Under the pieces are notes generated by a model, which worked only from the letters and a program-made list of their open reading frames with translations, did not search any database and was not told where the DNA came from. DNA of 64,000 nucleotides from a virus. Its lineage: Duplodnaviria > Caudoviricetes. A program made the translations under genes and the position numbers. Positions 32,397 through 51,702 of this stretch are shown here, in pieces; position 1 is the stretch's first letter, and each line of letters begins with the position of its first letter. Where the stretch lies: the IMG/VR virus record IMGVR_UViG_3300033075_001504, positions 12,001 to 76,000 of that record; one strand, given 5' to 3'.

Positions 32397-33881
32397 ATGG
32401 ACAAGTTCAGCATCGACAAGGCCGCGCACTTCGCCCAGATCGTGGACGACCTGACCAAGCTCGGGAAGGCCGGGAACGCCGGTGGCTACACCGAGCCGGT
32501 GATCTACACCCCGGGCGTGCAGATCGGCATCCCGGAGGGCATGAGCGACGCGGTCGCGATCGACACCCTGACCCAGTACGTCGCGGACAAGCGGACGATG
32601 ACGACGGTGGTCAAGGAGGACTACGGCTACAAGCCCTGGGACGTCGCGGCCGCCACGGCGCGCGTGCTGGCCAGCCAGTTCGGCATCACCACCCAGCGGG
32701 GCCGCGGCTCCCAGATCGAGGTCCAGTGCGACATCGACAAGGTGATGTACGTCCCGTGGGGCGAGGTGCAGGTGCCGCAGATCAAGGCCACCATCACCAT
32801 CGACTCCACCGACCTGGGCGACGGCATGGGCAGCGTGGGCCGCACCACGATCGAGCTGCCCAAGCTGTTCGAGGACGCCGCCCGCGGTGTGCACCAGCTC
32901 GTCGCCGCCGAGCTGGCCCAGCACTCCATCTACCGCGGCAAGGCGATCACGTCGGACGAGAAGCCCCGCTTCCTCAACCCCTACGTGACCGACCGCAACA
33001 ACATCGTGTGGTCGCACTCGACCCGCGCGGCCCTCATGGGCTCGGTCATCAACGTCATCCGGCACTCCGACCGGGCCAAGGAGCGGGGCATCGACCTCAA
33101 CCGCCCCGTGCTCTGGTACGGCGAGCCGGGCAACGGCAAGACCGAGACGATGAACATCGTCGCGCAGGAGGCCCTGGAGCACGGGTGGTCGTTCATCCAG
33201 TGCAACGGCACGCTGCGGGACCTCGTGTCCACGCTGCGCTACGCCCGCCGCCAGGGCCGCCACGTCGTCGCCGTCGAGGACTTCGAGCGCCTCATCAACG
33301 ACGCCACGCAGCAGGACCGAACGGACCTGCTCGAGGAGCTCGACGGCGCGACCAGCAAGGGCAGCGAGGTGCTGCTCGTGGCGACGACGAACTTCCTGGA
33401 GGACCTCAACGTCCACCAGGCGGCGCGTCGGCGCTTCTTCAAGGAGATCCACTTCGGTCCCCTCGACAGCCAGGGCGTGGAGAACCTGCTGCGCATCACG
33501 CTGGCGGGCACGGCCGCGGCCGACGCCGGGGAGTCCATCCCGGTCGAGGAGCACAAGCGGACCATCCACGAGGACGCGGACTACACCACGATGAACTACG
33601 CGAAGGTGACCCGCGCCCTGGACGGCTGGGGCAACTCCTACATCCGCAAGGTTCAGGAGTTCGCGCAGAGCATCGCGCTGGCCCACGCCGAGCCGCACCT
33701 CACCACTGCCGACCTGCTCGACGCGATCGAGGCCTACACCCCGGACTGGCAGGCCTACCTGGCCTCCCAGGGCCGCGCGGAGGAGCGGACCTTCGAGTCC
33801 GAGTTCCGCAAGGTCGTCCGCGAGGAGGCCAAGGCGGGCAAGGTCAAGAAGGCCGAGGAGAACGCCCCCACGATGTCCTAG
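32397..33881 (+). CDS. AAA+ ATPase (494 aa)
   Basis: Walker A GEPGNGKT, Walker B-like VVAVEDFE, LLEELDG, VATTN, Arg finger AARRRF. Confidence 0.9.
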   Translation: MDKFSIDKAAHFAQIVDDLTKLGKAGNAGGYTEPVIYTPGVQIGIPEGMSDAVAIDTLTQYVADKRTMTTVVKEDYGYKPWDVAAATARVLASQFGITTQRGRGSQIEVQCDIDKVMYVPWGEVQVPQIKATITIDSTDLGDGMGSVGRTTIELPKLFEDAARGVHQLVAAELAQHSIYRGKAITSDEKPRFLNPYVTDRNNIVWSHSTRAALMGSVINVIRHSDRAKERGIDLNRPVLWYGEPGNGKTETMNIVAQEALEHGWSFIQCNGTLRDLVSTLRYARRQGRHVVAVEDFERLINDATQQDRTDLLEELDGATSKGSEVLLVATTNFLEDLNVHQAARRRFFKEIHFGPLDSQGVENLLRITLAGTAAADAGESIPVEEHKRTIHEDADYTTMNYAKVTRALDGWGNSYIRKVQEFAQSIALAHAEPHLTTADLLDAIEAYTPDWQAYLASQGRAEERTFESEFRKVVREEAKAGKVKKAEENAPTMS

Positions 33882-33885
33882 ACCC

Positions 33886-34005
33886 GGTCAGGCTCGGTGG
33901 GGTCAGGCTTGGTGCGGCCCGGCGTGGAGCGGCTAGGCGTGACACGGCATGACAAGGCATGGCGTGCCATGGCAGGGCCTGGACCGGACTGGCAGGGCAC
34001 GGCAC
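33886..34005 (+). repeat. GGY-NN pentamer array 1 (24 units)
   Basis: In-register 5-nt units ggtca ggctc ggtgg ggtca ggctt ... ggcac ggcac; all start with G, 18/24 GGY. Confidence 0.9.
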
Positions 34006-34008
34006 GGG

Positions 34009-34038
34009 GGGGCGGGATCTTCGGGTCCCGCCCCTCTT
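34009..34038 (+). terminator. Hairpin closing array 1 (11 bp, C(UUCG)G loop, short U tract)
   Basis: ggggcgggatc-ttcg-ggtcccgcccc-tctt. Confidence 0.7.
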
Positions 34039-34059
34039 CCCATCTACGAACGGAGAGAC

Positions 34060-34593
34060 ATGAAGAAGTTGATCATCCCGCTGCTGGTGGCCGCCGCGCT
34101 GCTGGCCGGGTGCGCGGACTCGTCCCAGCGCAAGGACGCCCAGGTGGCCAACGACCAGCTCGGGCAGTACCTCCAGGCGCAGCCGGTGCCGGTGTTCAAG
34201 TGGTCCCAGGAGCGGGCCACGATGGTCGCCATCATCAACGCCCGGGCGACTACGACGGCGACCACGACGTTCTTCTTCAACCAGGGCGTCAAGGACCCGA
34301 TCATGTCCTGCCCGTCGATCGGCTACCCGATCGCATCCTCGACCCAGCTCACCAACCCCGACACCGAGGTGGGCGGGCAGGGCGCGGTCGTGGCGCAGAT
34401 CGACCCGCCCGGCGTCTACACAGGGGACTCGACGGGCACCTACGTGCTCTGCACGGCCTCCTCGGGCACCCGCTACCCCTTCTACTGGGAGGGTTTCGTC
34501 GCTACGGTCGGCGGGGACGCTGTCTGGGACAGCGCGAAGGGCGAGGCCGTCATGCAGGGCGAGCCGACCGTGAAGGTGGAGACCAAGAAGTGA
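34060..34593 (+). CDS. Lipoprotein (177 aa)
   Basis: MKK plus hydrophobic stretch plus lipobox LAG|C. Confidence 0.85.
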   Translation: MKKLIIPLLVAAALLAGCADSSQRKDAQVANDQLGQYLQAQPVPVFKWSQERATMVAIINARATTTATTTFFFNQGVKDPIMSCPSIGYPIASSTQLTNPDTEVGGQGAVVAQIDPPGVYTGDSTGTYVLCTASSGTRYPFYWEGFVATVGGDAVWDSAKGEAVMQGEPTVKVETKK

Positions 34594-34925
34594 GCGGCTA
34601 CGACAACTACGGCGACCGGCCGTCCAAGGACATGGCCCGCATCGTGATGTGGACCCTGTTCGCAGTGGTGCTGGTCGCGGCCGTCACGCTGCTGTGGGTC
34701 TACGTGGTGAGCCCGCTGCTGATCTCCCGCAACGCGGAGAACCTCCAGCGGACCTACGGGGCCCAGTCGGCGAAGATCGACGCGGCCCGCGAGGCGATCA
34801 CTGCGGCGACCGTAGCCACCAACCCGGCGAGCAAGAAGGCGCTGACCATCCAGGCGTGCCATCTCATCGCCGACGTGAACGACCCTCCCGGAGACCTCGC
34901 CTCCTTCGAGGCGACCGACTGCTGA
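34590..34925 (+). CDS. Single-pass membrane protein (111 aa)
   Basis: GTGA overlap; TM IVMWTLFAVVLVAAVTLLWVYVV. Confidence 0.8.
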   Translation: MSGYDNYGDRPSKDMARIVMWTLFAVVLVAAVTLLWVYVVSPLLISRNAENLQRTYGAQSAKIDAAREAITAATVATNPASKKALTIQACHLIADVNDPPGDLASFEATDC

Positions 34926-35151
34926 GCCACGGCGTGGCACGGCGTGGCCGGATAGGGCGGGGCAGGTCCAGCCCAGGTCTGGCAAGGCATGACTCGGCAG
35001 GGCATGGCACGGCATGGCCGGACCAGGACAGGCATGGAGGGGCTGGGCAAGGCAAGGCTAGGACTGGCCCGGCGAGGCGCGGTTTCGGCCCGGCAAGGCT
35101 AGGCAAGCCCCGGCAGGGCCGGGCTTGGCAAGGCACGGCAGGACGTGGTCA
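34926..35151 (+). repeat. GGY-NN pentamer array 2 (45 units; one extra C at 35086)
   Basis: 32 units 34926-35085 plus 13 units 35087-35151; 34/45 GGY. Confidence 0.9.
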
Positions 35152-35171
35152 TCACAACTCTGGAGGTCCCG

Positions 35172-35696
35172 ATGAAGTACACCTGGTTCCCTGACGCTTC
35201 GCGGTTCATCGAGGAGTGGGGGCTGTCGCACGCCGACGTCGAGGACGTCGCCGATCACCCGACGACCGTCGCGGTCAACGCGCTCTCGGTGAGCAAGGGC
35301 TACCCGGTCGAGGACCGGCGGCGCGGTGACGTGACCGTCGTGGTCGGTCTCCGCGAGGAGCAGCCGTCCATCCTCTACGTCCGGGTGCACCTCCCGATCC
35401 ACACCACCAGCGGCCTGGGCTCGCAGCAGCCGAGTGGATCGGGCTCCGAGCTTCCCCGCACGATGCGGGGGCTCCGATCCAAGATCGTGGCCGAGGGCTA
35501 CCGGATCGAGGCCGGTGGCAAGCACGACCGGGTGCTCACCCCGGACGGCGACTTCCTCTGCGCGATCTCCGTGACGCCATCGGAGTACCGATCGATCGCC
35601 AACGACTGGCTGGCGTTCCGGCGAGCGGCGGACAAGCACGCAGTCAAGAGCCGCGCGCTGCGCGGTTCCCTCTACCTCGAGGAGACCGCCCCCTGA
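35172..35696 (+). CDS. Two-domain protein: DUF4258/BrnT-like N-terminus plus HicA-like RNase C-terminus (174 aa)
   Basis: GLSHADVEDVADHP..RRRGDVTVVVG; C-terminal GYRIEAGGKHDRV..ISVTPSEYRSIAN resembles the HicA G-x-H/TPSD pattern. Confidence 0.55.
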   Translation: MKYTWFPDASRFIEEWGLSHADVEDVADHPTTVAVNALSVSKGYPVEDRRRGDVTVVVGLREEQPSILYVRVHLPIHTTSGLGSQQPSGSGSELPRTMRGLRSKIVAEGYRIEAGGKHDRVLTPDGDFLCAISVTPSEYRSIANDWLAFRRAADKHAVKSRALRGSLYLEETAP

Positions 35697-35701
35697 CCTA
35701 C

Positions 35702-35881
35702 GGCGCGGCTGGGTGAGGCACGGCCAGCCTCGGCGAGGCGTGGCTGGACAGGACAAGGCCAGGACGGGTTAGGCAAGGCAAGGCCAGGACAGGCGTGGCA
35801 GGTCTCGGCTTGGCAAGGCAGGACCAGCCTTGGTCGGGCTAGGCATGCACGGGTTCGGCGAGGCGCGGCGTGGCACGGCTG
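35702..35881 (+). repeat. GGY-NN pentamer array 3a (36 units)
   Basis: Perfect 5-nt register, 27/36 GGY. Confidence 0.9.
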
Positions 35882-35882
35882 C

Positions 35883-35913
35883 GGGCCCCATCACCGCGGT
35901 GGTGGGGCCCTTT
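35883..35913 (+). terminator. Intrinsic terminator-like hairpin between arrays 3a and 3b
   Basis: gggccccatcac-cgcg-gtggtggggccc-ttt (12 bp). Confidence 0.75.
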
Positions 35914-35918
35914 GCTGT

Positions 35919-36149
35919 GCCAAGGCGAGCCGGGACATGGCGTGGCTTGGTAAGGCGTGACACGGCGTGGCACGGCTGGATCTGGCCTGGCAAGGCGCGG
36001 CTGGGCAAGACCGGGCAAGTCTGGGCCCGGCAAGGCGGGCCAAGGCGCGCCGAGCCGTGGCGACGGCGAGGCACGGCAAGCCCGGGCGTGGCGAGGCAGG
36101 GCGCGACACGGCAAGCCCGGTCTCGGCGTGGCACGGCAAGGCAAGGAAC
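35919..36149 (+). repeat. GGY-NN pentamer array 3b (46 units; one extra C at 36064)
   Basis: 29 units 35919-36063 plus 17 units 36065-36149; 31/46 GGY; ends 32 nt before the RAMP ATG. Confidence 0.9.
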
Positions 36150-36181
36150 CATCCATCGAACAGGAAGGCAAGGACAGAACC

Positions 36182-36847
36182 ATGGCACGTACGAGCACGA
36201 TGAATCAGGAGCCCGTCGCCCTCGGTGGTGACGTGAGCAACGCAGGGGAGAGCGCGATCCTCACGGGGGCGCCCTACATGGCGACGGTGACCATCAAGGG
36301 CACCGCGCCGATCCTGTTCCACCGCTGGCAGACCGACGCGGTGGAGGCCAAGGCGAAGGCGGCCAAGAACTCCACGGCCAAGAAGACCGACGACGTGGAG
36401 TCCTACGTCTACCGCGACGAGCAGGGCGTCATCTGCCTGCCCGGCGTCTACCTGCTCGGGTCGATCACCGACCCGCGCAATGGCGCGGCCAAGTACCGGC
36501 AGGACCCGCGGTCCCCGCGCAAGAGCGCGCTGGACCTCTACAAGGCCGGGGTCATCGCGATGACCGACCTCGCGCCGATCACCCGTGCCGACGGCGAGCT
36601 CGCCACGGCGTGGGACTACACCGACCGCCGCCGGGTCACCGTGCAGCGGGCGGGCATCACCCGCGAGCGCCCGGCGTTCGCGGCGGGCTGGTCGGCCACG
36701 GTCGACTTCATGGTCACCACGCCCGAGTACATCAAGCCCGCCGACCTGCTCGACGTCCTCACCAAGGGCGGCCTGCTGGTCGGCGTCGCGGACTACCGGC
36801 CCACCTTCGGCCGGTTCCAGGTGGTCAACTTCGCGGAGATCCCGTGA
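36182..36847 (+). CDS. Stand-alone Cas7/RAMP-like protein (Vipr-like, 221 aa)
   Basis: N-terminal RRM strand ATVTIKGTAPILFH, central thumb-like YTDRRRVTVQRAGITRERP, C-terminal Gly-loop GGLLVGVADYRPTFGRFQV; ATG at 36182 after GGAAGG. Confidence 0.75.
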   Translation: MARTSTMNQEPVALGGDVSNAGESAILTGAPYMATVTIKGTAPILFHRWQTDAVEAKAKAAKNSTAKKTDDVESYVYRDEQGVICLPGVYLLGSITDPRNGAAKYRQDPRSPRKSALDLYKAGVIAMTDLAPITRADGELATAWDYTDRRRVTVQRAGITRERPAFAAGWSATVDFMVTTPEYIKPADLLDVLTKGGLLVGVADYRPTFGRFQVVNFAEIP

Positions 36848-37293
36848 GCATCCACCTGCGCAACGGGCTGTACACCGCCTGCGGGCGGCAGGTCTCCGGC
36901 ACCATCCGGGCCACCCAGGACACCTCGGCGGTGGACTGCTACCAGTGCCGTTCCACCAACGCGTACGGCGATCGTCTCCGCGCAGACCGGAACCTGACCG
37001 CCCCGCTCCTGAACAGCAACCTCACCGCCGACCAGCACGCCATCAAGGTGGTGCTGGACCAGGTGTTCGAGTCGGCCTACCGGGAGGCGGACGACCAGGG
37101 ATACTGCGACGTCTTCGACGACATCGTGGGCGACATCACGATCCCGTCCTGGTACACCCTGCCTCCGCGCAAGAAGAAGTGGCGGATCTCGGCCCGCTAC
37201 GACTCGACGGTCGACGCGGCCACCGAGGAGGAGGCCCTTCAGGTGATCGCCGAGAACCCCGGCGACTACCTCAGCGTCTACAAGGACTCCTGA
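36844..37293 (+). CDS. Hypothetical protein with N-terminal Zn finger (149 aa)
   Basis: HLR..TACG..VDCYQC; GTGA overlap with RAMP gene. Confidence 0.7.
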
Positions 37294-37339: not shown

Positions 37340-37888
37340 ATGATCAAGGCCCTGGCCACGCTCGGTGTGGCCGCCCTGCTGACGCTCGGCACCGCCGGGA
37401 CGGCCAGCGCGCACGAGCACCACCCCAAGCCGTCCTGCTCGCCGTCGGCATCCCCGACCCCGACCAAGACGCCCACCCCGACGCCGACTCCCACCGAGTC
37501 GACGCCGACCCCGACTCCCACCACGGAGTCGCCGACCCCCACGCCGACGACGCAGTCCCCGACTCCGACGCCGACGACGGAGTCACCCACCCCCACCCCC
37601 ACGGAGCCCACCGAGTCGCCCTCGGAGTCTCCGTCCGAGTCGGACTCGCCCAGCGCGACACCGAGCGAGTCCACCGCAACGCCCACGCCGAGCGAGTCGA
37701 GCCCGTCCGCGACGGGGACCCCGACTCCCTCGGTCGACCCGTCCACGACCCCGTCCCCGAGCGTCACGCCTCGGGAGCTGGCGCACACCGGTGACGAGCC
37801 GGGGGTCGTGCTGGGGCTGGGCCTGCTCGCCCTGGGGATCGGCATCGTCTCTCTGCTCGTCACGAGGCGGAGCGGCAGCCACTCCTAG
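37340..37888 (+). CDS. Secreted Pro/Thr/Ser-rich protein with LAxTG sortase anchor (182 aa)
   Basis: Signal peptide (ASA|H), (PT)n stalk, LAHTG plus TM plus RR. Confidence 0.85.
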
Positions 37889-47175: not shown

Positions 47176-50100
47176 TCAAGGCTTGCGGGCCCGGCTGCGC
47201 CCCTGCGGACCGCGCGCGGAGGTGGTGGGCAGGTCCTCGCGGGCCGCCGTGGTCTCGCCCTTGCCCGAGGCCCGGGACCGGCCGCCGCCCAGCGCGGTGG
47301 TGATCCGTCCGGCGAAGGCGACGAAGGTCGCCAGCGTGCGGGTGGCCACCGACCCGGCGAAGGACAGGCTCGACGCCAGGAGGACCGGGAAGCGGCGCCC
47401 GAAGGTCCCGGTGAAGCTCAGGGCGGCCGAGAGCTGGTAGGGGAACCGGCGGGCGAAGCTCCCGGCGAACAACAGGGCCGCAGAGAGCGCCTTCCCGGTC
47501 CGGCGGGTGATCGTCCCGGCGAGGCCCAGCGAGGCGCTCAGCGCCCGGCTGGTGGCCTTGGTGGTGGCCCCGGTGAAGGTCAGGGTGGCACTCAGCGCGC
47601 GGGCGGGCAGACGGCGGGCGATCGACCCCGCGAAGGACAGCGCGGCCGCCAGGGCGACGGGGAAGCGCCGGGCCAGGTTCCCCGTGAAACCGACCGCAGC
47701 GGACAGCCCCTTGCCCGTGCGCCGGGTCTGGGCGCCGGTGAAGGACAGCGCGGCGGTGAAGGCGCGGGGGAAGGCCCGCAGGAAGGAGCCGGTGAAGGAC
47801 AGCGCTCCGGCCAGTGCCTTGGACGTGCGGCGGGCCTGGGTGCCGGTGAAGGTGAGGGCGGCGCTCAGCACGAACGCGGTCCGGCGCAGCGCGAAGGCCC
47901 CGGCCAGCCCCAGGCTTGCAGCCAGCCGGGTCCTCACCGCCCGGGTCTGGGAGCCGGTGAAGGTGAGGGCGCCCGACAGGCTGCGGAAGAAGGTCTTGAC
48001 CGCGGTGAAGGTGCCGGTGCTGGTCAGCGTCGCGGTGAAGGCGCGAGCGGTGCGCCGCGCGGTCGAGCCGGTGAACGTCAGGGTCGCGGCCAGCGTGGCC
48101 GGGATGCGGCGGGCGATGCTGCCGGTGAAGGACAGCGCGGCGGTCATGGTCTTGCTGGTGCGCCGAACCTGCGACCCGGTGAACGACAGCGACGCGGTGA
48201 AGGCGCGCTGGAGGGCCTGTGCCCCCTGGTTGATCGTCCCGATGAACGAGAGCACTGCGGCCATCGCCTTGCCCACCGAGCGCGTCTGGGACCCGGTGAA
48301 GGAGAGCGCGGCGGCGAGGCCCTTGCCGGTCTGCTTGGCCGCCACCGACCCGGCGAAGGAGAGCGCCCCGGCCACCGATCGGGCGACCCGGCGGACCTGG
48401 GAGCCGGTGAAGGACAGGGCGGCGGTCATCGTCCTGCCGACCGAGCGGACCTGCGACCCGGTGAAGGTCAGCGCGCCCGCCACGCCCTTGCCGGTGCGCA
48501 GCGCAGCGGAGCCCGCGAAGGAGAGCGCCCCGCTGGCCGTCTTGCCGGTGCGACGCACCTGGCTGCCGGTGAAGGAGAGCGCGCCGCTCAGGGCCCGGGT
48601 CAGGGCCAGCCCGGAGAGCAGGTTTCCGGTGAAGGAGAGCGCCCCGCTCAGGCTGCGCGCGACCCGGCGCACCACCGACCCCGTGAAGGAGAGCGCGCCG
48701 GTGAGCAGCTTGGCGACGTTCCGCGTCACCGATCCGGTGAAGGACAGCGCGGCGGTCATGGCCTTGGCGGCGCTGCGCGCCAGGGCACCCGTGGAGGACA
48801 GTGCGCCCGACACCGCCTTGGCCGTGCGGCGCACGACGGAGCCGGTGAACGACAGCGCCCCGGCCAGCGGTCGGGTGGTCTGCTTGACCTGACTGCCGGT
48901 GAAGGAGAGCGCAGCGGTCAGCGTCTGGCTGAACGCGTGGCTGCCCGAGATGAAGCTCGTAGCCACTGCCCCGGCGAAGGAAAGCGCGGCGGCGAAGACG
49001 CGCGAGGACTGCTTGGCCACCACTCCGGCGAACGAGAGGACGGCGGTGGTCGTCTTGGCAGTGCGCCGGGCCTGGCTGCCTGTGAAGGTCAGCGTCGCCG
49101 CCACGCTCTTCCCGGTCCGGCGTGCCTGGGCTCCAGTGAACGACAGCGCGGCGCTCAGCGCCTTGGGGAAGGCGCGCAGCACCGCCCCGGTGAAGGTGAG
49201 GGTGGCCGCGAGCGCCCGAGCGGTCCGCTTGGCCACCGCCCCGGTGAAGGACAGCGCGCCTGCGACCGCCTTGGAGACCGAGCGGGCGACGGCACCGGCG
49301 AAGGAGAGTGCGGCGCTCGTGCGCTTCTGCGTCTGACGGACCAGGGGCGTGCCGCCACTGAGCCCCGAGGTCCCCGCGGCGTAGAGGTTGGCGATCTCGG
49401 TCGAGGACAGCGCCCGGTCCCACAGCGCCCACCCAGCCTGGGTGCCATCGGTCGTCGCCGAGGTGTCCCACTGGTGGTTGAGGTAGATGGTGGACTGGGT
49501 CCAGGCGCTGGCGGGGGTGGCGCCGACCGTGCCCTCGGACGCCCCCTGGACGTAGAGGGTGACGAACGAGGAGACGCCGGTGAGGTTGTTGATCGTCCCC
49601 GCCACGAAGTAGGTCTGCCCGGTCGTGATCGTCGTGGTCCCCGTCGCCACGCGCCAGGCGCCCCCGTCGAACATGCCTGCGGTGAAGACCGAGCTCCCGC
49701 CGCCGCTCGCGTGACCGACCCAGAGCGGGATGCTCGACCCCGACGCCCACCCCAGACCGCAGAGGAACGGGTCGGCGGCGTTGTCGGTGCACTTCCACCA
49801 GCCCGCGAACGTCAGCGCGGTCCAGGACGCAGGCGCGGACGTGGCCACGGTGGCGTAGGTACCGCTGCTCGACGGGAACCGGACCGCGCCGCCCCCGCCG
49901 CTGTAGATCGCCGCCTGCCCCAGGGTGGGACCGCTCTGGTAGGTGCCGTTCGTGCCCAGGGACCCCGAGTCCGTCATGGTCGTGCCGGACGGCTCGTCCA
50001 TCTTGTAGAAGAACTTCGGGGCCAGCGCCAGCACCGCAGCGTTGTAGGCGATGGAGTTGAAGGACAGGGCGCCGCTCAGGGACCGGGAGAAGAAGCGGCT

Positions 50101-51702
50101 CGAGGCGAACGAGCCGGTGAAGGAGAGAACTCCTGCGACGGTCTTGGCCGTCCGACGGGCCTGGGCCCCGGTGAAGGAGAGCACTCCCGCCACGGCCTTC
50201 CCGGCACGGCGGGTCTGGCTGCCGGTGAAGGACAGCGCACCGGCCAGGGCGCGACCGGGCAGGCGCAGGAAGGCACCGACGAAGGCCAGCGAGGCCGCCA
50301 GGGCGCGGGCGGTCCGCTTGGCCGTCGATCCCGTGAAGGACAGGGCGGCGGCCGCCAGCGTCTTGGCCGTGCGGAAGGCGTCGCTGCCCGTGAAGGAGAG
50401 CGCGGCGGTCTGCTTCTTGGAGACCTGGGTCTCGAGCAGTCGGCGCATCGAGACGTTGTCCACCCAGGTGAGCTCGCCCCCGGTGGTCGCGTCGGCGTTG
50501 ATGAAGCCCAGGAAGGCTCCGCCGCCGGTGAAGCCCAGGCCGCCGGTAGGGGTGATGTAGCAGCCGATGGTCTCCCAGGTGTTGGCCGTGCCGCTCGTGG
50601 TGGCCGACAGCCCCGGCGCGGCGGAGATGAACAGCGCACCGAACAGGTCGGCGAGCTGGACGCGCTTGGTGGTGTTGCTCCGGACCCGGGCGGTGACCAG
50701 GTAGACGCCGTTGTCCAGGATGTCGGGCGGGATGTTGGTGATCACGGCCGCGCCGGAGTTCCCGGCGGACGCGGCGGGCCAGGTGAGCTGGTAGGAGTAG
50801 GTCCCGGTGTCCACCTGGGCGGTGGACTGGTCGAACGCGGTGAGCGCGGTCAGCCCGATGATGGCCCCGGTCCAGCCCACACCGCCCTCGTGGGCCAGGT
50901 CGTACTCGGCGGTGCGGTCCTTGGTGCGGATGGCCTGGTTGAACTCCAGGATCGAGGACAGCGCCTGGTTGTAGTTGTTGGCGGTCGCGGCCGGGAGGAT
51001 GGCCACGCCGATGGCCGCGTGCTCGTCGGAGGCGGCCCAGGACCACGACAGGTTCTGGTCGGTGTAGCGCCACGAGCAGACGTAGGACATGTTGCTCGAC
51101 GTGCCGCAGATGTAGCTCGCCAGGTCGAGCTGGGTGACGGCCCGGGTCGCTCCGGTGGTGGACCGGGCGGACTCGATGCCCAGGAACAGCGCACCGGGGA
51201 CCAGCGTGGGGGTCAGGGTGTCCGACGTGCCGGTGGTTGCCGCGTTCTTGATCGCGGTGGCCAGCGGGGTGGTCGCGCTGGCCTTGTAGAAGGAGACCGC
51301 GGTGGCGGCGGTCGGGATCACGCCCGAGTTGGTGACCACCACGTTGCCGGTGGCGGCAGTGGGGCTGGTCAGGTACCAGACCTCAGCCCGGCGGTTCGAC
51401 GCGTTGGCCGAGGAGAGAACGGTGTCCCACTTCGTCAGCGCCGTCCCGTTCCAGGTGACGCCCGTGGTGGTCTGCGCGCCGTTGGGTCCGGTCGCCACCT
51501 CTACCACGACGAGGTTTGCCCCGGTCGGGACGGTCAGCGACCAGCTCGCGGAGTTGGTCGAGACCCCGGAGGGGTAGGAGGAGAACGAGGCGATCTCGAC
51601 GGTCTCGTGCAGGAAGCCAGTCCCGTAGTAGGCCTCCGGGACGGAGAGCGGGTACCAGCCCGCGTACTTGAGGGTCGGCTCGAAGACCTCGCGGAGGGCC
51701 AC
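47176..51702 (-). CDS. Long repeat-rich fibre protein with lectin-like inserts (1508 aa)
   Basis: ~44 copies of [AG]ALSF[TA]G[SA] at ~18-aa period; LamG-like insert (FYKMDEPSG..TFAGWWK..YFVAGT..TLYVQG..WDRALSSTEIANLY). Confidence 0.85.
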   Translation of the reverse strand: MALREVFEPTLKYAGWYPLSVPEAYYGTGFLHETVEIASFSSYPSGVSTNSASWSLTVPTGANLVVVEVATGPNGAQTTTGVTWNGTALTKWDTVLSSANASNRRAEVWYLTSPTAATGNVVVTNSGVIPTAATAVSFYKASATTPLATAIKNAATTGTSDTLTPTLVPGALFLGIESARSTTGATRAVTQLDLASYICGTSSNMSYVCSWRYTDQNLSWSWAASDEHAAIGVAILPAATANNYNQALSSILEFNQAIRTKDRTAEYDLAHEGGVGWTGAIIGLTALTAFDQSTAQVDTGTYSYQLTWPAASAGNSGAAVITNIPPDILDNGVYLVTARVRSNTTKRVQLADLFGALFISAAPGLSATTSGTANTWETIGCYITPTGGLGFTGGGAFLGFINADATTGGELTWVDNVSMRRLLETQVSKKQTAALSFTGSDAFRTAKTLAAAALSFTGSTAKRTARALAASLAFVGAFLRLPGRALAGALSFTGSQTRRAGKAVAGVLSFTGAQARRTAKTVAGVLSFTGSFASSRFFSRSLSGALSFNSIAYNAAVLALAPKFFYKMDEPSGTTMTDSGSLGTNGTYQSGPTLGQAAIYSGGGGAVRFPSSSGTYATVATSAPASWTALTFAGWWKCTDNAADPFLCGLGWASGSSIPLWVGHASGGGSSVFTAGMFDGGAWRVATGTTTITTGQTYFVAGTINNLTGVSSFVTLYVQGASEGTVGATPASAWTQSTIYLNHQWDTSATTDGTQAGWALWDRALSSTEIANLYAAGTSGLSGGTPLVRQTQKRTSAALSFAGAVARSVSKAVAGALSFTGAVAKRTARALAATLTFTGAVLRAFPKALSAALSFTGAQARRTGKSVAATLTFTGSQARRTAKTTTAVLSFAGVVAKQSSRVFAAALSFAGAVATSFISGSHAFSQTLTAALSFTGSQVKQTTRPLAGALSFTGSVVRRTAKAVSGALSSTGALARSAAKAMTAALSFTGSVTRNVAKLLTGALSFTGSVVRRVARSLSGALSFTGNLLSGLALTRALSGALSFTGSQVRRTGKTASGALSFAGSAALRTGKGVAGALTFTGSQVRSVGRTMTAALSFTGSQVRRVARSVAGALSFAGSVAAKQTGKGLAAALSFTGSQTRSVGKAMAAVLSFIGTINQGAQALQRAFTASLSFTGSQVRRTSKTMTAALSFTGSIARRIPATLAATLTFTGSTARRTARAFTATLTSTGTFTAVKTFFRSLSGALTFTGSQTRAVRTRLAASLGLAGAFALRRTAFVLSAALTFTGTQARRTSKALAGALSFTGSFLRAFPRAFTAALSFTGAQTRRTGKGLSAAVGFTGNLARRFPVALAAALSFAGSIARRLPARALSATLTFTGATTKATSRALSASLGLAGTITRRTGKALSAALLFAGSFARRFPYQLSAALSFTGTFGRRFPVLLASSLSFAGSVATRTLATFVAFAGRITTALGGGRSRASGKGETTAAREDLPTTSARGPQGRSRARKP

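What the first reader, a model, noticed from the sequence alone, without database searches (positions are those of the whole stretch)
33886..36847. Stand-alone Cas7/RAMP-like gene preceded by four GGY-NN pentamer arrays: candidate RNA-guided gapped-code (VIPR-type) system
Seen: 151 five-nucleotide units in strict register in four blocks (24, 45, 36, 46 units). Every unit starts with G, 110/151 start with GGC or GGT (the rest GAC, GCC, GTC, GGA, GAT, GCA), and the last two bases are free. Each block is non-coding, three start within 5 nt of a stop codon, two end in terminator-like hairpins, and the last ends 32 nt before a 221-aa gene with RAMP hallmarks (N-terminal strand TIKGTAPILFH, C-terminal Gly loop VGVADYRPTFGRFQV). 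No cas1/cas2/cas3/cas10 and no repeat-spacer CRISPR array occur in the window. Established: Cas7/RAMP proteins polymerise along guide RNA with fixed nucleotide periodicity. Inference: each protomer binds a GGY and displays the NN for pairing, making the arrays programmable guides. From memory (not verifiable here) this matches the reported VIPR architecture (Vipr plus GGY/NN RNAs, anti-phage), so the class may be known while this locus and its guides are not.
Basis: partly seen in the sequence, partly recalled or inferred. Interest (0 to 1): 0.97.

Follow-up and report, generated by a model that had tools for sequence, protein, structure and literature searches.

The report
Phage VIPR locus with four guide arrays
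This is a real example of VIPR, a CRISPR-like RNA-guided DNA-silencing system first described in 2026. A small Cas7-like protein gene sits after four long arrays of five-letter guide repeats in a 76-kb high-GC phage, and guides in sister strains spell out each other's genes, so it most likely serves competition between related phages.

Summary

**Arrays.** Four plus-strand GGY-NN pentamer arrays hold about 27, 45, 36 and 46 units. They are the only such tracts in the whole 76-kb virus record and lie far above chance.

**Protein.** The 221-aa protein matches the solved SUSP1 Vipr protein by sequence (E 7.6e-8) and keeps its GGY-contacting residues. It folds at pLDDT 93 into a Csm3/Cas7-like RAMP.

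**Relatives.** All 7 loci from phage records and metagenome contigs, and 11 of 13 from MAG contigs, carry same-strand arrays.

- Three sister strains of this phage have mosaic arrays. Cassettes of about 8-14 units (one of about 24) are gained, lost or replaced.
- Two sister-strain guides obey the published 1-nt-skip code. One matches a rival strain's 164-aa gene 20/20 in wobble frame but its own allele only 16/20. Another matches this window's 174-aa gene 16/16.
- Controls with other skip lengths and 857 shuffles do not reproduce these matches.

**Not found.** No target was found for this window's own guides, and no conserved accessory (vap) gene.

**Novelty.** The class is published in 2026 preprints, and this scan has flagged it on other DNA at least 144 times. 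This is a new member of a known kind. Its unusual features are long arrays interleaved with genes and no per-guide tail.

The parts
33881..34009 (+). vrRNA array 1, about 26-27 GGYNN units, starting on the stop codon of the AAA-ATPase gene
   Evidence: The 3' part is shared with sister strains L044 and L045; L044 has about 24 extra units at the 5' side.
34010..34033 (+). Hairpin closing array 1: 10-bp stem with a UUCG tetraloop and no U-tract
   Evidence: Read directly from the sequence. Conserved with small changes in L044-L046. It may be a terminator or a vrRNA 3' cap; that role is inferred.
34060..34593 (+). 177-aa lipoprotein-like accessory gene embedded between arrays
   Evidence: Lipobox signal (LPAM_1 E 0.015). 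Codon-position GC 0.58/0.49/0.96. Replaced by a 164-aa gene in L046.
34590..34925 (+). 111-aa single-pass membrane protein, overlapping the lipoprotein gene's stop codon
   Evidence: The match to an Rz-like spanin PHROG is weak (E 0.009).
34926..35155 (+). vrRNA array 2, 45 units, with a 6-nt unit GGTTTC at 35081-35086; it runs up to the RBS of the 174-aa gene
   Evidence: The RNA fold is no more stable than shuffles (z -0.12).
35172..35696 (+). 174-aa gene conserved in all four strains. Codons 11-18 (35202-35225) are matched 16/16 by a sister-strain (L046) guide under the 1-nt-skip rule.
   Evidence: The C-terminal domain shows a weak HicA-like fold (Z 4.6). A 51%-identical homologue occurs without VIPR.
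35702..35881 (+). vrRNA array 3, 36 units
35883..35910 (+). Intrinsic-terminator-like hairpin (12 pairs) followed by TTTGCTGTG, separating arrays 3 and 4
   Evidence: A related hairpin closes arrays in L044 and L045.
35919..36149 (+). vrRNA array 4, 46 units, with a 6-nt unit GGCGAC at 36059-36064. It forms the leader of vipr and is almost entirely unique to this strain.
36182..36847 (+). vipr: 221-aa Vipr (ancestral RAMP / Cas7-like) protein
36844..37293 (+). 149-aa Cys-containing gene overlapping the vipr stop codon (GTGA). It is a possible accessory gene but is not conserved beside vipr in more distant relatives.
   Evidence: Codon-position GC 0.61/0.45/0.95. No family hit. No homologue in relatives' loci. 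In L045 and L046 a 118-aa gene lies between it and vipr.

Best explanation
The locus is a VIPR (Viral Interference Programmable Repeat) system carried by a complete 76-kb high-GC siphovirus. No integrase was found, so the phage is probably lytic.

**Proposed mechanism.**
1. The four arrays are transcribed with the surrounding plus-strand accessory-gene operon.
2. Vipr protomers polymerise on the RNA, one per pentamer. They sequester G1, G2 and Y3 and display each NN.
3. The filament pairs with double-stranded DNA that reads NNx-NNx... (1-nt skip) and blocks transcription there.
4. Each long array is a head-to-tail string of guides, mostly about 8-14 units each, without a tail for each guide. 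Only arrays 1 and 3 end in a hairpin.
5. The guides are aimed at genes of co-infecting, closely related phages, in particular strain-specific alleles of the accessory genes that sit among the arrays. A phage's own alleles escape through mismatches.

**Shown here:** family membership of the protein, the arrays and their statistics, array turnover between strains, and code-conforming guide-target pairs between sister strains.

**Inferred:** transcription, processing into separate guides, filament formation, silencing, and the targets of this window's own guides.

The confidence given is for 'this is a VIPR system'. The inter-strain targeting role is less certain, at roughly 0.5-0.6.
For: **Protein**
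- phmmer hit to PDB 36pp_D 'SUSP1 Vipr protein', E 7.6e-8, nearly full length. H47, R163, D204, Y205 and R206 align with the SUSP1 RNA-contact residues (residues named).
- Matches phrog_4652 at E 1.4e-20.
- AF2 pLDDT 93.1, pTM 0.83. The top Foldseek hits are Csm3, type VII Cas7, Cmr4 and Cas7-11 at E about 1e-6, probability 1.0.
- The motif R161-x-R163-P164 ... G201-x-x-D204-x-R206-P207-x-x-G210-R211-F212 is invariant or at least 90% conserved in 63 homologues.

**Arrays**
- Only four tracts in 76 kb, all on the gene strand, far above shuffles.
- Same-strand arrays lie close to or directly beside vipr in L001-L007 and in 11 of 13 MAG loci.

**Evolution**
- Among aligned array positions of sister strains, substitutions by unit position are: position 1, 0/179; positions 2-3, 13-16%; positions 4-5, 23-24%.
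- Cassettes of about 8-14 units (one of about 24) are inserted, deleted or replaced while Vipr stays at least 90% identical.
- Arrays in a related phage with identical Vipr differ by 60- and 65-nt block indels.

**Code**
- The L046 guide matches the L045 164-aa gene 20/20 with x on the wobble base, and its own allele 16/20.
- Another L046 guide matches this window's 174-aa gene 16/16 at 35202-35225 in wobble frame, and its own allele 11/16.
- Skip 0 and skip 2 give no hits at 15/16 or better, against 7 for skip 1.
- In 857 unit-order shuffles a 16/16 hit appeared in 6, and no 10-unit window exceeded 18/20.
- The NN composition fits codon positions 1-2 of this genome's genes (-4.06 bits per unit) far better than the other two frames (-5.6 to -5.9).

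**Self-targeting and CRISPR parts**
- No self-target in the own genome (best 17/24, same as controls).
- No Cas1 and no CRISPR-like array.
Against: - **No target for this window's own roughly 13 guides.** Nothing was found in its genome, in sister strains, in relatives' loci, or in 8 viral and 2 metagenome exact-seed scans. Every hit was a chance match in a 25-56% GC contig with no extension into the flanks.
- **Only two solid guide-target pairs**, and both come from sister strains. The third, across the vipr start, is 15/16, is not in wobble frame and is near chance expectation.
- **No conserved 3' tail or ribozyme between guides** (Rfam empty). How a 230-nt array would yield separate vrRNAs is unknown.
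- **No conserved vap partner**.
- **No expression or binding data.**
Confidence: 0.9

Rival explanations
1. The arrays are a passive by-product: pentanucleotide microsatellites or recombination hot spots that shuffle accessory-gene cassettes. Their closeness to a RAMP-like gene would then be historical, not functional.
For: - Gene cassettes flanked by arrays are swapped between strains: the lipoprotein + membrane-protein pair, the 164-aa gene, or both.
- Array indels sit between similar sequences, which suggests repeat-mediated recombination.
- The array RNA has no special structure.
Against: - Microsatellite slippage would homogenise units. Here G1 is invariant while NN uses all 16 dinucleotides.
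- Arrays track vipr across phyla and across GC contents from 45% to 71%.
- Sister-strain guides match rival genes under exactly the published 1-nt-skip rule and under no other spacing.
- The recombination role could be an added side effect rather than an alternative.
Confidence: 0.04
2. The system is real, but it acts in cis as a regulator of the phage's own embedded genes (autoregulation of the accessory operon) rather than against rival phages.
For: - The arrays sit in the UTRs or leaders of the genes they flank.
- The two good targets are genes of the same hypervariable module.
- One weak match covers the vipr start region.
Against: - Guides match their own genome no better than controls do (17/24).
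- In both good pairs the guide fits the rival allele perfectly and its own allele worst (16/20 and 11/16).
- The paper also reports no self-targeting.
Confidence: 0.05
3. The guides are directed mainly at host or unrelated mobile-element genes, such as defence genes or prophages of the unknown actinobacterial host. The sister-strain matches would then be a minor side line.
For: - This window's own guides have no match in any sister strain or relative held here.
- Published VIPR clades target satellites and resident prophages.
- Earlier notes of this scan report guides spelling restriction-enzyme or CRISPR gene motifs in other genomes (unchecked).
Against: - No host genome is known.
- Seed scans of viral and metagenome collections found nothing, but only about half of the units were sampled and only exact seeds could be used.
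Confidence: 0.3

Closest known systems
Type II VIPR of Escherichia phage SUSP1 (Vipr + vap1 + four vrRNAs; bioRxiv 10.64898/2026.04.26.720920 and .720927; PDB 36pp)
   Same: - Homologous Vipr protein (E 7.6e-8) with the GGY-contact residues conserved.
- GGY-NN pentamer repeats on the gene strand, and a phage-borne system.
- The 1-nt-skip code is supported by sister-strain guide-target pairs in wobble frame.
- No self-targeting.
   Different: - SUSP1 vrRNAs are discrete transcripts of about 100 nt with 9-16 repeats, each ending in a conserved pseudoknot tail. Here the arrays hold 27-46 contiguous units with no tail per guide and only two terminal hairpins.
- The arrays here are interleaved with three protein genes.
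- No conserved vap was found.
- The genome is 69% GC, and the Y position is almost always C.
'Staggered' VIPR arrays with directly abutting vrRNAs (fig. S18 legend of 10.64898/2026.04.26.720920)
   Same: Continuous pentamer arrays in which one guide ends where the next begins. Cassette indels here of about 8-14 units are in line with guides of the published 9-16 repeat size.
   Different: - The figure and type tables are not held, so the match rests on the legend text alone.
- The published 1-nt overlap could correspond to the conserved 6-nt slip units here, but that was not tested.
- The VIPR type (I-VII) could not be assigned.
Class 1 CRISPR backbone RAMPs (Csm3 / Cas7 of types III and VII)
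   Same: RRM core, thumb hairpin and glycine-rich loop (Foldseek probability 1.0, TM about 0.5). The protein is expected to polymerise along a guide RNA with fixed periodicity.
   Different: - 10-16% sequence identity.
- No Cas1, no repeat-spacer array, and no Cas5, Cas6, Cas10 or small subunit seen in the locus.
- 5-nt rather than 6-nt periodicity.
- A gapped rather than contiguous guide.

Membership tests
VIPR system (Vipr + vrRNA) | Vipr protein: a minimal RAMP with RRM core, thumb and G-loop, homologous to published Vipr proteins | tested here: met
   PDB 36pp_D SUSP1 Vipr, E 7.6e-8, query residues 35-215 against chain 5-188 of 202. AF2 pLDDT 93 with a Csm3/Cas7-like fold.
VIPR system (Vipr + vrRNA) | Residues that read G1, G2 and Y3 in SUSP1 (H17, R138, D177, W178, R179) | tested here: met
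   They align to H47, R163, D204, Y205 (aromatic kept) and R206. R163, D204 and R206 are at least 90% conserved in 63 homologues. H47 is invariant in 26 close homologues.
VIPR system (Vipr + vrRNA) | Tandem YNNGG / GGYNN pentamer repeats in intergenic DNA beside vipr, with at least 4 units | tested here: met
   Four arrays with about 155 units, all on the + strand. The same holds in relatives.
VIPR system (Vipr + vrRNA) | GGY conserved while NN is hypervariable between related systems | tested here: met
   Substitutions per unit position between strains are 0%, 13%, 16%, 24% and 23%. Cassette turnover is shown.
VIPR system (Vipr + vrRNA) | Targets follow the 1-nt-skip (NNx) rule on dsDNA, with no self-targets | tested here: inconclusive
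   Met for sister-strain guides: 20/20 and 16/16 in wobble frame, skip 0 and 2 controls empty, 857 shuffles. For this window's own guides no self-target was found, but no target was found either.
VIPR system (Vipr + vrRNA) | Each vrRNA ends in a conserved structured 3' tail (type II) or is separated by ribozymes (some type I and V) | tested here: not met
   No repeated tail and no Rfam or hammerhead hit. Hairpins occur only after arrays 1 and 3. The paper allows other architectures, such as staggered arrays, so this bears on the type, not on family membership.
VIPR system (Vipr + vrRNA) | An adjacent vipr-accessory (vap) gene | tested here: inconclusive
   Neither the downstream 149-aa gene nor the upstream 174-aa gene is conserved beside vipr in more distant relatives. 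The paper calls the two-gene layout 'typical', not universal.
VIPR system (Vipr + vrRNA) | vrRNAs are expressed and co-purify with Vipr, and repression can be reprogrammed | not testable with these tools
   This needs small-RNA sequencing, pull-down and reporter assays.
CRISPR-Cas (class 1) | Repeat-spacer array plus an adaptation or effector cas gene set | tested here: not met
   No Cas1 (PF01867) in the 76-kb record. No CRISPR-like repeats. The only RAMP found in the locus is the lone Vipr.

The most novel reading that the evidence does not exclude
In this lytic actinophage-like lineage, VIPR works as an allele-specific weapon between strains.

- Guide cassettes are swapped in and out of long arrays that have no tail per guide and are embedded in operon UTRs.
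- The guides are aimed at rival strains' versions of the very accessory genes that sit among the arrays, including this phage's 174-aa gene with a weak HicA-like fold.
- Each strain's own alleles carry escape mismatches.
- The arrays double as recombination substrates that exchange those gene cassettes.

If so, guide turnover plus target-allele escape would be a CRISPR-like arms race fought entirely between sibling viruses, without any known acquisition machinery.
Probability: 0.3. Interest if true: 0.6.

Novelty: new member of a known kind. Interest (0 to 1): 0.42.

Why it matters
VIPR was described only in 2026 and has been characterised in two gamma-proteobacterial systems. This locus extends it to a very large, mostly metagenomic high-GC clade. 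That clade holds 4,917 protein clusters at 90% identity and 1,012 at 50% identity, with relatives in Acidimicrobiia and other MAGs.

Four natural strains of one phage give a rare view of the system evolving:
- guides are gained and lost as cassettes;
- two guide-target pairs independently confirm the 1-nt-skip, wobble-skipping code outside the published hosts;
- the targets are rival alleles of neighbouring accessory genes.

The locus also offers a ready experimental pair, a sister-strain guide against the window's 35202-35225 site. It raises the question of how long arrays without tails are cut into guides.

Tried and rejected
- **Targets of this window's guides.**
  - Searches used the NNx rule with 8-, 10- and 12-unit windows against the own genome, 20 relatives' loci and the sister strains (including 17 kb of the L044 contig). 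Nothing rose above the skip-0 and skip-2 controls.
  - Eight exact-seed scans of viral contigs and two of metagenome contigs (9-10 units each) gave 0-9 hits each. All were in 25-56% GC contigs with random flanks.
  - The 10-unit hit in L034 is not in wobble frame and was judged to be chance.
  - One metagenome seed later proved to straddle a cassette boundary.
- **Cross-targeting among more distant relatives' arrays.** 2,134 units were tested and none matched.
- **Boundary signals inside arrays.**
  - Degenerate units show no periodicity.
  - No handle motif is shared between phages.
  - The local 14-nt motif CGGCGTGGCACGGC occurs 5 times and is unexplained.
- **Reading the guides as peptides by eye.** No recognisable motif appeared.
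- **Vap candidates.**
  - The 149-aa protein has no family and no ESM Atlas lead (best score 0.77).
  - The 174-aa protein gave a low-confidence model whose HicA matches are all below Z 5.
  - Neither gene travels with vipr.
- **Host.** The genome search cannot draw relatives for a virus record, and a single-protein scan of GTDB genomes found nothing.
- **VIPR type.** The preprint's supplementary tables are not held, so the type (I-VII) could not be assigned.
Full report
**1. Observation**

The window is 68.6% GC. A period-5 scan for GGY found four tracts, all on the + strand: 33871-34015, 34921-35161, 35687-35896 and 35919-36149. In these, 126 positions reach at least 5 of 8 GGY in register, against 0-6 in each of 20 Markov shuffles. 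The full 76-kb record has no other tract above background.

Parsing gives about 27, 45, 36-37 and 46 units. GGC or GGT starts 109 of 155 units. Position 1 is G almost throughout, position 3 is nearly always C, and all 16 NN dinucleotides occur.

- Blocks 2 and 4 each contain one 6-nt unit (35081-35086 and 36059-36064).

The hairpins after blocks 1 and 3 are real. The first is at 34010-34033 with a UUCG loop. The second is at 35883-35910 and looks like a terminator.

**2. The protein**

The ORF at 36182-36847 has typical coding GC by codon position (0.64/0.50/0.96).
- It has no Pfam hit and matches phrog_4652, a family of unknown function, at E 1.4e-20.
- Against PDB sequences it hits one entry, 36pp_D 'SUSP1 Vipr protein', at E 7.6e-8 over nearly the full length.
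- The cryo-EM preprint names the residues that hold the GGY bases as H17, R138, D177, W178 and R179. In the alignment these fall on H47, R163, D204, Y205 and R206.
- R163, D204 and R206 are at least 90% conserved in a 63-sequence alignment, as is the surrounding G-loop motif.
- An AF2 model built on that alignment has pLDDT 93.1. It matches Csm3, type VII Cas7, Cmr4 and Cas7-11 with Foldseek probability 1.0 and TM about 0.5.

The family is large: 4,917 clusters at 90% identity and 1,012 at 50% identity. Nearly all members come from metagenomes.

**3. What is known**

Two 2026 bioRxiv preprints describe VIPR.
- Vipr is an ancestral RAMP that polymerises one protomer per YNNGG repeat.
- GGY is sequestered and NN pairs with dsDNA, skipping every third base.
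- The result is transcriptional silencing of rival phages.
- Seven types are defined, with variable array layouts including 'staggered' arrays.

This scan's own index holds 144 earlier VIPR-like findings in at least 122 genomes.

**4. Context**

The record is an IMG/VR virus contig that CheckV rates as complete. It is a siphovirus: the tape measure, tail tube and HK97-gp10-like genes lie on the minus strand and converge on the VIPR operon. No tyrosine or serine recombinase was found, so it is probably lytic.

The arrays fill every intergenic gap of a plus-strand module in this order:
1. AAA-ATPase gene
2. array 1 and hairpin
3. lipoprotein and membrane-protein genes
4. array 2
5. 174-aa gene
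6. array 3 and terminator
7. array 4
8. vipr
9. 149-aa gene
10. secreted PT-rich protein gene

Only vipr is shared with more distant relatives, so no conserved vap could be named.

**5. Relatives**

- Phage DSL-LC04 (52% identity; its Vipr gene is annotated as an HTH regulator) has a 293-nt array directly upstream.
- JGI phage contigs of 57-60 kb (69-72% identity) carry 5-10 plus-strand arrays of up to 600 nt, spread through their early region.
- Of 13 MAG contigs with Vipr at 47-67% identity, 11 have arrays beside the gene. The two exceptions have vipr at a contig end. The MAGs include Microthrixaceae, Acidimicrobiales, Mycobacterium sp., Oscillospiraceae, Acidobacteriota and Bathyarchaeia. 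One holds 139 in-register units.

**6. Strain comparison (new here)**

Three contigs carry the same phage with Vipr at least 90% identical: L044, L045 and L046. Their flanking genes are about 93-96% identical at the nucleotide level, but the arrays are mosaics:
- Stretches of about 8-14 units (one of about 24) are shared, deleted or replaced.
- Array 4 of this window is almost unique.
- In aligned parts, unit position 1 never changes (0/179), positions 2-3 change in 13-16% of cases, and NN in 23-24%.
- A second phage lineage with identical Vipr shows 60- and 65-nt block indels.

This points to head-to-tail guides, mostly about 8-14 units long, which would make roughly 13 guides in this window.

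**7. Targets**

This window's own guides matched nothing:
- own genome, best 17/24, equal to the skip-0 and skip-2 controls;
- relatives and sister strains;
- ten seed scans of public collections, which returned chance hits only.

Sister-strain guides do have targets:
- L046 3890-3939 matches the L045 164-aa gene 20/20. NN falls on codon positions 1-2 (peptide TGFMWGWAVN). The match to L046's own allele is only 16/20.
- A guide at the 3' end of L046's array 2, with a near-identical copy in L045, matches this window's 174-aa gene at 35202-35225 16/16 in wobble frame. It matches the L044 allele 14/16, the L045 allele 12/16 and L046's own allele 11/16.

Controls support these two pairs:
- Skip 1 gives 7 windows at 15/16 or better, while skip 0 and skip 2 give none.
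- In 857 unit-order shuffles, a 16/16 hit occurred in 6 and no 10-unit window exceeded 18/20.

A third match, an L045 guide across the vipr start of this strain at 15/16, is near chance and out of frame.

The NN composition of this window's arrays fits codon positions 1-2 of high-GC genes and not the other frames.

**8. Mechanism and open points**

The best-supported reading is a functional VIPR system used in competition between co-infecting sibling phages. Guides fit rival alleles and miss the phage's own alleles.

Still unexplained:
- how long arrays with no tail per guide are processed (no ribozyme; no excess structure);
- the two conserved 1-nt slips;
- the 14-nt motif CGGCGTGGCACGGC, repeated five times near block ends;
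- the targets of this strain's guides.

The 174-aa protein has a weakly HicA-like C-terminal domain (Z 4.6). That is a lead for an RNase or toxin role and nothing more.

**9. Verdict**

It is a new member of a recently published class, with an unusual array layout and informative variation between strains.

Noticed in passing
L047:1-1400 (JGI 3300008065 Ga0110935_1025392): A sister-strain contig carries vipr, a 118-aa gene and the first ~230 nt of the 149/152-aa gene. At about position 1290 it switches into a minus-strand Mce operon (four genes with MlaD + Mce4_CUP1). This is either an assembly chimera or a junction with an actinobacterial chromosome, and it is the only host clue found.
   Followed up: partly
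L001:6001-6618 (GenBank OR003939, Phage DSL-LC04): The Vipr homologue (WJZ48083.1, 52% identity) is annotated as a 'helix-turn-helix transcriptional regulator'. A 293-nt GGYNN array with two terminator-like hairpins lies directly upstream (L001 5697-5989).
   Followed up: partly
window 35172-35696: The C-terminal domain of the 174-aa protein (residues 95-163) is predicted as alpha-beta-beta-beta-alpha, with an invariant G-x-x-H. Its best, weak matches are to HicA toxins (Z 4.6-3.8). The N-terminal domain weakly resembles RelE/MqsR-type toxins. Only 7 homologues are known. The gene is the site matched by a sister-strain guide.
   Followed up: partly
window 34060-34925: A lipoprotein gene and a single-pass membrane-protein gene overlap and sit between arrays 1 and 2. 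L046 has an unrelated 164-aa gene in their place, and L045 has both. The zone between the AAA-ATPase gene and vipr is a cassette-swapping hot spot, with arrays at the cassette borders.
   Followed up: partly
L014:10606-11315 (Acidimicrobiales MAG JBIOZN010000056.1): A 710-nt array of 139 in-register units, almost all perfect GGY, lies immediately after the vipr homologue. It is the longest uninterrupted array seen here.
   Followed up: no
window 47176-51702 (-): A 1508-aa ORF contains several runs of 54-nt (18-aa) tandem repeats at 48238-48862 and 50113-50250.
   Followed up: no
window 37340-37888 (+): A 182-aa protein with a signal peptide has a Pro/Thr-rich region encoded by 27-nt tandem repeats (37478-37602). 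It is the last plus-strand gene before the convergent tail-gene operon.
   Followed up: no
window 34930-36137: The 14-nt motif CGGCGTGGCACGGC occurs five times: at the start of array 2, at the end of array 3, and at three places in array 4. The NN pair GT then AC is enriched 4-fold. It is not shared with other phages' arrays and its meaning is unknown.
   Followed up: partly
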